Below are positions 13,010-13,456 of a stretch of 64,000 nucleotides of DNA, piece after piece. The notes below the pieces were generated by a model. It saw nothing but the letters and a program-made list of their open reading frames with translations. It made no database searches and was not told the origin of the DNA. The position numbers were made by a program, and so were the translations under genes. Positions within the stretch are counted from its first letter, which is position 1, and each line of letters starts with the position of its first letter. The DNA lies in the NCBI RefSeq assembly GCF_054482595.1, contig NZ_CM137008.1; one strand, 5' to 3'.

Positions 13010-13456
13010 TTACTGTGCGAACACGCAATTTCGGCCTGATGGGGAGCCGACAATTCTGGACATTTTTTCGCAAATAACAGTTACTTGTTCTCCTTTTTTA
13101 AGAGCAGCAGCTGTTGATTTTTCAGAGTCTTGCATTTCCATTCTTGCTGGCATGAATTCATTTTCAGTTCTGAATTTAATAATTATAGAGTCAGTAAAGT
13201 CCTTATCAATGGATTGTACGATACCTCTAACGGCGATTAATTTACCTTGTAACTGTTCATCGGTAGCGACTTCATTTTCTTCATACTGTTTAAACAGCTG
13301 TCGAGCAGTAGTGTTGTAGATTTCTTTTTGCGGTGCCGCAGCTTCCGTATCGGATGAGTATGAAGAATTAGAGCCTTTATCGTTATTGCCTGCAAAATAT
13401 CCAATAATCACCAACCCGATGAAAATATATAAAATCCATTTTAATAATTTCTTCAT
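13010..13456 (-). CDS. Membrane-anchored OB-fold protein (tRNA_anti-like/DUF-type), antisense moron inside tail module
   Basis: 148 aa; N-terminal KKLLKWILYIFIGLVIIGYFAG anchor; ...QLFKQYEENEVATDEQLQGKLIAVRGIV... resembles tRNA_anti-like OB-fold family as recalled; AAGGTG SD; only minus-strand gene in the tail module. Confidence 0.6.
   Translation of the reverse strand: MKKLLKWILYIFIGLVIIGYFAGNNDKGSNSSYSSDTEAAAPQKEIYNTTARQLFKQYEENEVATDEQLQGKLIAVRGIVQSIDKDFTDSIIIKFRTENEFMPARMEMQDSEKSTAAALKKGEQVTVICEKMSRIVGSPSGRNCVFAQ

What the first reader, a model, noticed from the sequence alone, without database searches (positions are those of the whole stretch)
13010..13456. Antisense, membrane-anchored OB-fold gene inserted between tape-measure and DNA-circulation genes
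Every tail gene from 8159 to 19904 is on the plus strand and tightly coupled, except this 148-codon minus-strand gene. It sits in its own visibly AT-rich pocket (12978..13566) with a good AAGGTG ribosome-binding site, an N-terminal hydrophobic anchor or signal (KKLLKWILYIFIGLVIIGYFAG) and an OB-fold-like body (…YEENEVATDEQLQGKLIAVRGIV…). Its placement and composition mark it as a moron expressed from the prophage independently of late transcription. Membrane-anchored morons often mediate superinfection exclusion or host-surface modification; the function here is unknown.
Basis: partly seen in the sequence, partly recalled or inferred. Interest (0 to 1): 0.6.

Follow-up and report, generated by a model that had tools for sequence, protein, structure and literature searches.

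The report
Prophage gene resembling a phage-exclusion protein
A small backwards-facing gene between two tail genes of an E. coli prophage encodes a membrane-tethered protein distantly related to Sie2009, a dairy-bacterium protein that stops other phages injecting DNA, so it is probably an optional shield against rival phages, though this was not tested.

Summary
Window 13010..13456 (-) is a real 148-codon gene. It is the only minus-strand gene in a plus-strand tail operon and sits in a 589-bp pocket of 37% GC between flanks of 54-57% GC.

It is an optional cargo gene (a moron), not a tail part. Phages SfI, SfII and SfV have only a short intergenic spacer at this tape-measure/DNA-circulation junction. 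About 1095 of 5426 E. coli genomes carry the flanking genes, but only 78 carry this gene. At least four unrelated AT-rich cargo genes occupy the same junction in other strains.

The main new result is remote homology to lactococcal Sie2009, which is reported to block phage DNA injection. Both fall in PHROG 8545 and Pfam PF12869, and hhalign gives 97.8% probability.

The best reading (about 0.5) is that the lysogen makes this protein to block genome entry by incoming phages. Expression, target and phenotype are untested. I class it as a new, Gram-negative member of a known kind, of moderate interest.

The parts
13010..13456 (-). Coding sequence of a 148-aa protein (stop codon 13010-13012). NCBI's PGAP annotation calls the near-identical (99.8% nt) gene in E. 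coli EC01307 'OB-fold protein' (WP_024250676.1).
   Evidence: Pfam PF12869 at 1.8e-18. phrog_8545 at 6.8e-49. dN/dS about 0.07.
13391..13450 (-). Codons 3-22: the N-terminal transmembrane anchor (MKKLLK-WILYIFIGLVIIGYFAG). Three lysines precede it, which favours the N-terminus being in the cytoplasm. There is no lipobox and no cysteine here.
   Evidence: Hydropathy and lipobox search. AlphaFold helix at 3-22.
13322..13390 (-). Codons 23-45: a Ser/Asn/Thr/Ala-rich flexible linker that varies in length and sequence among homologues.
   Evidence: pLDDT below 50 for residues 25-39. Homologue sequences.
13013..13321 (-). Codons 46-148: the OB-fold domain, predicted to be periplasmic. It has two invariant cysteines (C129, C144) and a calculated pI of about 5.2.
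13462..13467 (-). Shine-Dalgarno sequence AAGGTG, five bases upstream of the ATG. The block AGGTGATAACATG is shared with three of the other alleles.
13514..13524 (-). Candidate extended -10 promoter element TGCCATAATTT. It is the only conserved block (TGC[CTG][AT]TAA[AT]TT) in an otherwise diverged upstream region across four alleles. This is an inference, not a demonstrated promoter.
   Evidence: Alignment A4. The canonical promoter scan found nothing in this gap.
12985..13006 (.). GC-rich hairpin (CAGGGAGGG-GCGG-CCCTCCCTG) in the 32-nt gap between the converging tape-measure gene and this gene. The scan scores it as terminator-like only on the - strand. All four alleles keep a GGGAGG/CCUCCC stem with different loops.
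   Evidence: Folding energy -20.4 kcal/mol, z = -2.95, and hairpins in the other three alleles..
12978..13566 (.). The whole variable cassette: everything between the tape-measure stop codon and the DNA-circulation start codon. It replaces a short intergenic spacer (about 63 bp in 'empty' E. coli prophages; SfII, SfI and SfV likewise lack the gene).
11145..12977 (+). Left flank: the tail tape-measure gene (context only).
13567..14895 (+). Right flank: the DNA-circulation (Mu gp43/N-like) gene, starting at the conserved ATG 13567 (context only).

Best explanation
The gene is an optional cargo cassette (a moron) carried at the tape-measure/DNA-circulation junction of an SfV-like E. coli prophage, which has an HK97-type head and a Mu-type contractile tail.

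It encodes a bitopic inner-membrane protein. The short, lysine-rich N-terminus stays in the cytoplasm. One transmembrane helix follows, then a flexible linker of about 25 residues, then an acidic OB-fold domain in the periplasm. The OB domain is probably stabilised by a disulfide between C129 and C144.

The protein is a remote homologue of lactococcal Sie2009. I therefore infer that the lysogen makes it from its own promoter and that it acts at the outer face of the cytoplasmic membrane. There it would stop superinfecting phages from delivering their genome after they adsorb. It could do this by binding the incoming tail-tip or tape-measure conduit, or by masking the membrane component that the conduit needs.

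What is shown: the gene is real and under purifying selection; it is dispensable and swappable cargo; it has an OB fold; it belongs to the same PHROG and Pfam family as Sie2009.

What is inferred: the topology (strong in-silico support), expression in the lysogen, the anti-phage phenotype, and the step that is blocked.
For: Homology to Sie2009:
- Tuc2009 orf2 (Sie2009) matches phrog_8545 at 1.7e-79 and the window protein matches the same PHROG at 6.8e-49.
- Both match Pfam PF12869, at 4.2e-11 and 1.8e-18.
- A profile of 51 homologues against Sie2009 gives hhalign probability 97.8%, E 1.2e-12, over 134 columns, including the anchor-linker-OB layout.
- Sie2009 is reported as a small membrane-associated protein that prevents DNA injection (PMC7693887, PMC10883804).

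The OB domain lies outside the cytoplasm:
- Positive charges precede the helix.
- The two cysteines are invariant in 51 of 51 aligned homologues and a C-terminal pair is present in 202 of 231 family proteins.
- 40 of 231 relatives have a CxxC...CxxC zinc ribbon before the helix, and several others have true lipoboxes or cleavable signal peptides.
- The OB domain of TcdC, a protein whose family profile matches PF12869, was shown experimentally to be extracellular (PMC3575817; bioRxiv 10.1101/872283).

The gene is cargo:
- It is absent from SfI, SfII and SfV.
- It is present in 78 of about 1095 E. coli genomes that carry the flanking genes, and it lay at this junction in every copy whose context was examined.
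- A second E. coli allele is 71% identical in protein while its flanks are 92-99% identical (dS 2.6 against 0.1-0.2), which indicates a cassette swap.

Relatives sit in positions typical of lysogen-expressed genes:
- Downstream of and co-oriented with the immunity repressor in Burkholderia phage Carl1 and in Bordetella phages.
- Antisense within baseplate genes in Klebsiella phage ST405-OXA48phi1.2.
- At a prophage end beyond the tail fibres in Serratia.
- Between cI and int for the TcdC homologues of Lactobacillus phages (PMC3575817).

The gene has its own expression signals: a Shine-Dalgarno sequence, a conserved extended -10-like block, and a conserved 3' hairpin.
Against: - No experiment exists on any Gram-negative member. 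None turned up in the paper library searched.
- Identity to Sie2009 is only about 25%, and PF12869 is very large (7706 representatives). Function need not transfer across it.
- Close homologues also occur outside recognisable prophages: in Pantoea, in Pectobacterium, and in one contig next to an ABC-transporter operon.
- PADLOC has no matching model.
- No canonical sigma-70 promoter was detected upstream, and the AT-rich DNA could be silenced by H-NS.
- Loss-of-function copies are common. A 142-bp deletion removes the anchor, ribosome-binding site and candidate promoter in E. coli 042-type strains (8 of 40 evenly sampled records). IS1 disrupts two further copies.
- The 3' hairpin lacks a clean U-tract.
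Confidence: 0.5

Rival explanations
1. It is an envelope fitness or virulence cargo gene rather than an anti-phage one. In this reading the periplasmic OB domain binds a host envelope component, such as an oligosaccharide, peptidoglycan or a porin. It would alter stress, serum or antimicrobial-peptide resistance, as Bor/Iss and the periplasmic OB protein YdeI do.
For: - OB folds bind oligosaccharides and proteins as well as nucleic acids (discussion in bioRxiv 10.1101/872283).
- A related prophage carries the lipoprotein cargo gene iss.
- Homologues exist in chromosomal, non-prophage positions.
- The family is very large and mostly unannotated.
Against: - There is no Pfam match to the YdeI/YgiW-type BOF family.
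- The only experimentally characterised protein found in this PHROG is an exclusion protein.
- Relatives recur immediately downstream of phage repressors.
Confidence: 0.2
2. It is an immunity-type protein against periplasm-acting toxins, such as colicins, tailocins or type VI secretion effectors, rather than against phages.
For: - Small inner-membrane-anchored periplasmic proteins are the usual format for such immunity proteins (general knowledge).
- The Pantoea homologue lies in a variable island that also encodes a WapI-family immunity protein.
Against: - No toxin gene lies next to it in the window or in the prophage copies.
- The association with phage genomes and repressor operons is much more consistent.
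Confidence: 0.08
3. It is an abortive-infection protein of the AbiP/PdpSau kind. Those are membrane-anchored OB-fold proteins whose cytoplasmic domain binds nucleic acid and kills or arrests the infected cell.
For: AbiP and PdpSau are described as membrane-anchored, OB-fold-containing phage-resistance proteins (PMC10127798). The top fold matches after 3f1z are DNA-binding OB domains.
Against: - Topology evidence places the domain in the periplasm.
- The domain is acidic, with pI about 5.2.
- There are no PADLOC hits.
- A direct sequence comparison with PdpSau or AbiP could not be made, because neither sequence was retrieved.
Confidence: 0.04
4. It is a conserved functional part of the tail module, for example an assembly factor, or an antisense regulator of late transcription.
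For: It sits at the same junction and in the same orientation in prophages of three genera, and has diverged in step with its flanks in Buttiauxella and Scandinavium.
Against: - Isolated, sequenced phages SfI, SfII, SfV and SKA5 lack it.
- About 93% of E. coli genomes with the flanking genes lack it.
- Purifying selection acts on the protein sequence.
- The membrane and periplasmic targeting does not fit a role in virion assembly.
Confidence: 0.03

Closest known systems
Sie2009 (orf2 of Lactococcus phage Tuc2009; identical in LC3), the prototype lactococcal superinfection-exclusion protein
   Same: Both fall in PHROG 8545 and Pfam PF12869, and hhalign gives 97.8% probability. Both share the layout of short basic N-terminus, one transmembrane helix, Ser/Thr/Gly-rich linker and OB domain. 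Both are encoded by temperate phages and are AT-rich accessory genes.
   Different: Identity is only about 25%. The host is Gram-negative, so the domain would sit in the periplasm and has a conserved cysteine pair that Sie2009 lacks. The gene lies antisense in the tail operon, not between integrase and repressor. No phenotype has been measured.
[quoted passage not shown]
   Same: Works-like analogy: a small predicted inner-membrane protein encoded by a moron inside the tail-gene region of an E. coli temperate phage (PMC10883804, citing Cumby et al. 2012; its position in the HK97 genome is from my own knowledge).
   Different: It is not an OB-fold protein, and no sequence relationship was tested or is expected. 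It is an analogue, not a family member.
C. difficile TcdC and its homologues in Lactobacillus and Leuconostoc phages
   Same: Membrane anchor plus a C-terminal OB fold. The TcdC family profile matches PF12869 (E 1.3e-6, PMC3575817). The OB domain was shown experimentally to be extracellular (bioRxiv 10.1101/872283). The phage homologues lie between cI and int.
   Different: TcdC has an extra coiled-coil dimerisation region, is 232 aa long, and is discussed as a regulator of toxin genes. I did not compare it directly here.
3f1z, the Klebsiella pneumoniae 'putative nucleic acid-binding lipoprotein' (structural-genomics entry)
   Different: It is lipid-anchored rather than helix-anchored, shares 16% identity, and has no known function.
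AbiP (Lactococcus) and PdpSau (S. aureus prophages)
   Same: Membrane-anchored proteins with an OB-like domain that give phage resistance (PMC10127798).
   Different: They are described as having a basic, cytoplasmic, nucleic-acid-binding domain and acting by abortive infection. Here the domain is acidic and predicted to be periplasmic.

Membership tests
Pfam PF12869 (tRNA_anti-like OB-fold) | Significant match to the family HMM over most of its length | tested here: met
   i-Evalue 1.8e-18, 67 bits, residues 2-130 against model positions 5-131 of 146.
Pfam PF12869 (tRNA_anti-like OB-fold) | Five-stranded OB barrel | tested here: met
Sie2009-like superinfection-exclusion proteins (phrog_8545) | Sequence membership in the same family as Sie2009 | tested here: met
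   phrog_8545: window protein 6.8e-49, Sie2009 1.7e-79. hhalign 97.8%, E 1.2e-12.
Sie2009-like superinfection-exclusion proteins (phrog_8545) | Small protein with a hydrophobic N-terminal membrane anchor and the rest outside the cytoplasmic membrane | tested here: met
   In silico only: hydropathy, positive charges before the helix, an invariant cysteine pair, and zinc-ribbon and lipoprotein relatives. No SignalP or TMHMM was available, and there is no experiment.
Sie2009-like superinfection-exclusion proteins (phrog_8545) | Gene lies in the lysogeny module, between integrase and repressor | tested here: not met
   Here it lies antisense between the tape-measure and DNA-circulation genes. More distant relatives in phage Carl1 and Bordetella phages do lie next to the repressor.
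Sie2009-like superinfection-exclusion proteins (phrog_8545) | Blocks DNA injection by superinfecting phages without affecting adsorption | not testable with these tools
   Needs plating, adsorption and DNA-entry assays.
Moron (Hendrix-type accessory transcription unit in a prophage) | Present in some but absent from otherwise closely related phage genomes | tested here: met
   Absent from SfI, SfII and SfV. Present in 78 of about 1095 E. coli genomes with the flanking genes. Other cargo genes occupy the same junction.
Moron (Hendrix-type accessory transcription unit in a prophage) | Base composition differs from that of its neighbours | tested here: met
   GC 0.37 against 0.54-0.57. The other three alleles are 0.38-0.41.
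Moron (Hendrix-type accessory transcription unit in a prophage) | Has its own promoter and terminator | tested here: inconclusive
   The 3' hairpin is conserved in four alleles and scores as terminator-like only on the - strand. There is no canonical promoter by scan, only a conserved extended -10-like block.
Moron (Hendrix-type accessory transcription unit in a prophage) | Expressed from the repressed prophage | not testable with these tools
   Needs RNA-seq or 5'-RACE of the lysogen.
AbiP/PdpSau-type membrane-anchored OB-fold abortive-infection proteins | Cytoplasmic, basic, nucleic-acid-binding C-terminal domain | tested here: not met
   Predicted periplasmic domain with pI about 5.2. No PADLOC match. 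No direct sequence comparison was made.
BOF family (YgiW/YdeI periplasmic OB-fold stress proteins) | Match to the BOF Pfam model | tested here: not met
   No such hit among Pfam matches up to E=10.
Bacterial lipoprotein (some homologues are named 'OB-fold putative lipoprotein') | Lipobox with an invariant Cys at the end of the signal peptide | tested here: not met
   No lipobox, and no Cys before residue 129. Some relatives (P0063, P0066, P0070, P0076) do have one.

The most novel reading that the evidence does not exclude
Extracytoplasmic, membrane-tethered PF12869 OB-fold proteins may form one ancient class of phage-entry blockers used by temperate phages of both Gram-positive and Gram-negative bacteria, with Sie2009, this E. 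coli protein and possibly the C. difficile TcdC lineage as members.

In this reading, the tape-measure/DNA-circulation junction of SfV/Mu-type tail modules is a dedicated swap site for envelope-targeted exclusion cassettes. The four other cargo genes found there are a signal-peptide protein, a lipoprotein, a membrane protein and a PH-domain protein. They would then be uncharacterised exclusion or defence genes.
Probability: 0.2. Interest if true: 0.7.

Novelty: new member of a known kind. Interest (0 to 1): 0.4.

Why it matters
The mechanism by which Sie2009-type proteins act is still described as unknown or hypothetical in the papers I read (PMC7693887, PMC10883804). An E. coli homologue would allow that question to be studied in the best-developed phage genetics system. 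Escape mutants, topology fusions and periplasmic pull-downs could all be used.

The work also flags a cargo hot-spot next to the tape-measure gene in a prophage type found in about 20% of complete E. coli genomes. That junction holds at least four other uncharacterised, mostly envelope-targeted genes. They are cheap candidates for new exclusion or defence functions.

Finally, the results connect Sie2009, the 'tRNA_anti-like' OB fold and TcdC-like proteins. The papers I could search treat these separately.

Tried and rejected
Searches that returned nothing useful:
- PADLOC, no match.
- NCBIfam, only a sub-threshold S1-protein hit.
- PDB sequence search, only chance hits.
- Rfam on 12500-14000, one chance-level hit.
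- AFDB50 and BFVD fold searches, only unnamed 'tRNA_anti-like' proteins.

Promoter: the canonical sigma-70 scan found nothing in the upstream gap. Its only minus-strand hit lies inside the coding sequence.

Literature:
- No paper in the library links PF12869 or 'tRNA_anti-like' to superinfection exclusion, or describes an E. coli OB-fold exclusion protein.
- Mahony 2008 and Cumby 2012 are not held. What I say about them comes from papers that cite them and from my own knowledge.

Failed comparison: I tried to fetch PdpSau from Staphylococcus phage 53 for a direct comparison. The region I looked at did not contain it, and I did not pursue it.

Readings I considered and rejected:
- A structural tail gene: phages without it exist.
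- A cytoplasmic nucleic-acid binder: the topology and acidic pI argue against it.
- A lipoprotein: this allele has no lipobox.
- A recent insertion: the gene has co-diverged with its flanks in two other genera.
- A chance ORF: dN/dS is about 0.07 and there are thousands of homologues.

Full report
**1. The observation**

The minus-strand ORF at 13010..13456 exists: 148 codons with an ATG start. An AAGGTG Shine-Dalgarno sequence lies five bases upstream. All neighbouring genes from 8159 to 19904 are on the plus strand and mostly overlap or abut.

GC content is 0.37 in the ORF and in the pocket 12978..13566. It is 0.54 to the left and 0.57 to the right. GC3 of the ORF is 0.33.

The mechanical plus-strand ORF of the next gene starts at 13519. 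The start shared with SfII, SKA5 and NCBI's PGAP annotation is ATG 13567.

The gene is not a chance ORF. It has 89 close homologues. A profile search finds 7706 family representatives at E<=1e-3. dN/dS against three diverged alleles is about 0.07.

**2. Where the window comes from**

The flanking DNA matches SfV/SfI/SfII-like phages and prophages of E. coli and Shigella. These have HK97-type head genes and a Mu-type contractile tail.

The left neighbour is the tape-measure gene (11145..12977). The right neighbour is the DNA-circulation gene (13567..14895). The prophage ends near tRNA-Pro(GGG) at 23714..23790, next to host yejM.

**3. It is cargo, not a tail part**

- SfI, SfII and SfV have only a short spacer at this junction. 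SfII's is annotated with a terminator.
- A query made of the two flanks joined together matched 1095 of 5426 complete E. coli genomes.
- The gene itself matched 78 genomes at 80 places. It lay at this junction in every copy whose context I examined.

I then sampled 60 records evenly down the ranking of those 1103 matching records. The junction states were:

| State of the junction | Records |
|---|---|
| Empty (about 63 bp) | 26 |
| SKA5-type gene | 15 |
| This OB-fold gene | 5 |
| Other cargo genes | 3 |
| Only one flank matched | 11 |

The alternative cargo genes are all AT-rich (31-42% GC), all in PHROGs of unknown function, and none is in PADLOC:

| Cargo | Length | N-terminus | PHROG |
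|---|---|---|---|
| SKA5-type | 170 aa | signal peptide | phrog_8976 |
| Lipoprotein | 225 aa | lipobox | phrog_1353 |
| Membrane protein | 176 aa | transmembrane helix | phrog_5485 |
| PH-domain protein | 125 aa | none | phrog_7115 |

Only the OB-fold gene is antisense.

**4. History of the cassette**

Alleles 69-73% identical sit at the same junction, in the same orientation, in a second E. coli lineage and in Buttiauxella and Scandinavium prophages.

- In Buttiauxella and Scandinavium the gene has diverged about as much as its flanks: 70-75% protein identity against 72-84% for the flanks.
- In the second E. coli lineage the flanks are 92-99% identical but the gene is only 71% identical. dS is 2.6 for the gene against 0.1-0.2 for the flanks. 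That pattern indicates a cassette swap by recombination.

So the gene is an old resident of this junction in a minority of these phages. It has stayed AT-rich throughout.

Decayed copies exist. A clean 142-bp deletion removes the anchor, ribosome-binding site and upstream block in E. coli 042-type strains. This was seen in 8 of 40 evenly sampled records. IS1 disrupts two further copies.

**5. The protein**

- Pfam PF12869 ('tRNA_anti-like') matches at 1.8e-18.
- AlphaFold2 with 51 homologues gives mean pLDDT 87. It predicts a helix at 3-22, a disordered stretch at 25-39, and an OB barrel at 46-146.

Several lines place the OB domain outside the cytoplasm:

- Three lysines precede the helix.
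- C129 and C144 are invariant, and 202 of 231 family proteins keep a C-terminal cysteine pair.
- 40 of 231 relatives have a CxxC...CxxC zinc ribbon before the helix. I take that to be a cytoplasmic module.
- Several relatives have true lipoboxes or cleavable signal peptides instead of the helix.
- The domain is acidic (pI about 5.2), which is not typical of DNA binders.

This allele has no lipobox. I cannot decide here whether the helix is a stable anchor or a cleaved signal peptide. The zinc-ribbon relatives argue for an anchor.

**6. The link to a characterised protein**

PHROGs places the protein in phrog_8545, 'superinfection exclusion Sie-like' (6.8e-49). I fetched Tuc2009 orf2, which is Sie2009, and tested it directly:

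- It matches phrog_8545 at 1.7e-79 over its full length.
- It matches PF12869 at 4.2e-11.
- It aligns to my 51-sequence profile with hhalign probability 97.8%, E 1.2e-12, over 134 columns.

[quoted passage not shown] The proposed mechanism is interaction with distal tail components or masking of the injection trigger (PMC7693887; also PMC10883804).

TcdC of C. difficile is a second relative. Its family profile matches PF12869, and its phage homologues lie between cI and int (PMC3575817). Its OB domain was shown experimentally to be extracellular (bioRxiv 10.1101/872283).

**7. Genomic positions of relatives**

| Relative | Position |
|---|---|
| Burkholderia phage Carl1 | Third gene of the immunity-repressor operon, followed by a terminator |
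| Bordetella avium phages | Downstream of and co-oriented with the repressor |
| Klebsiella phage ST405-OXA48phi1.2 | Zinc-ribbon version, antisense among baseplate genes |
| Serratia | At a prophage end beyond the tail fibres |
| Erwinia | Beside a 186-like prophage end |
| Pantoea, Pectobacterium, one other contig | Chromosomal positions with no recognisable prophage |

Most of these are positions typical of genes expressed in the lysogen. The chromosomal ones show that the family is not exclusively phage-borne.

**8. Expression signals**

The consensus scan finds no sigma-70 promoter in the 110-bp upstream gap. Aligning the four junction alleles shows one conserved block in otherwise diverged sequence: TGC[CTG][AT]TAA[AT]TT, at window 13524..13514 on the minus strand. 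It reads as an extended -10 element.

A GGGAGG/CCUCCC hairpin follows the stop codon in all four alleles, with different loops. In the window it scores as terminator-like only on the minus strand. That would stop the cargo transcript while letting late tail transcription pass. Both points are inferences.

**9. Explanation and rivals**

Best supported (about 0.5): the lysogen makes an inner-membrane-tethered periplasmic OB-fold protein that blocks genome delivery by superinfecting phages after they adsorb, as Sie2009 does.

Rivals:
- An envelope fitness or virulence factor (0.2).
- Immunity to periplasm-acting toxins (0.08).
- An AbiP/PdpSau-type abortive-infection protein (0.04). The predicted topology and acidic pI argue against it.
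- A tail-module function (0.03). Phages that lack the gene argue against it.

The homology to Sie2009 is distant, the family is very large, and no Gram-negative member has been tested in anything I could find.

**10. Verdict**

This is a new, Gram-negative member of a known kind (Sie2009-like cargo genes), already grouped that way by PHROGs but named only 'OB-fold protein' in genome annotation. Interest is moderate. The main value is a tractable E. coli model for a poorly understood exclusion family, plus a cargo hot-spot with several uncharacterised envelope proteins.

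Noticed in passing
window 20981..22930 (-): A 649-aa ORF matches the PADLOC Type IV methyl-directed restriction enzyme model over its full length (PDLC03655, E=0, 1418 bits). It is AT-rich (about 0.41 GC). It lies between the tail-fibre genes and the prophage end, so it is a second likely defence cargo gene of the same prophage.
   Followed up: partly
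window 23714..23790 (-) and 23865..25625 (-): tRNA-Pro(GGG) lies next to host yejM, and composition rises to host level here, which marks the prophage end. The near-identical tail module in strain EC01307 is integrated elsewhere, next to pao/ecp. There it carries an acyltransferase, a GIY-YIG protein and a DUF6650 protein at its end instead.
   Followed up: partly
L002 2059..2571; L019 1234..1611; L020 1209..1886; L021 1832..2362: Four unrelated AT-rich cargo genes occupy the same tape-measure/DNA-circulation junction in other E. coli phages and prophages. They are a signal-peptide protein (phrog_8976), a PH-domain protein (phrog_7115), a lipoprotein (phrog_1353) and a membrane protein (phrog_5485). 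All are sense-oriented, of unknown function, and absent from PADLOC.
   Followed up: partly
L016 2501..2916 (E. coli 042); L017; L018: Inactivated copies of the gene exist. A 142-bp deletion removes codons 1-24, the ribosome-binding site and the candidate promoter. IS1 has inserted in or next to the gene in two other strains.
   Followed up: yes
L014 4001..4351 (+), Bordetella phage vB_BaM-IFTN4: The tblastn match to the OB-fold protein is on the strand opposite to the deposited CDS (3850..4326, -). The deposited annotation may have called the wrong strand.
   Followed up: no
L013 3632..4300 (+), Klebsiella phage ST405-OXA48phi1.2: A zinc-ribbon + transmembrane helix + OB-fold relative is annotated as 'hydrogenase maduration factor (HypF finger)'. 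This is probably a mis-annotation caused by the zinc ribbon. The gene is antisense within baseplate genes.
   Followed up: partly
L019 (plasmid pMTY18781-3, 70 kb) and 12 other plasmid matches: The SfV-type tail module also occurs on plasmids: 13 of about 1249 matched places. These may be phage-plasmids or assembly artefacts.
   Followed up: no
L005-L008 8001..11200 (Pantoea): The Pantoea homologue (65% identical) lies in a chromosomal variable island after copCD-yebY. The island also holds unknown genes, a WapI-family immunity protein and IraP. It is not a recognisable prophage.
   Followed up: no
window 13519..13566 (+): The mechanical ORF of the DNA-circulation gene begins at ATG 13519, inside the AT-rich pocket. 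The conserved start is ATG 13567. Automated gene callers could over-extend this gene by 16 codons.
   Followed up: yes
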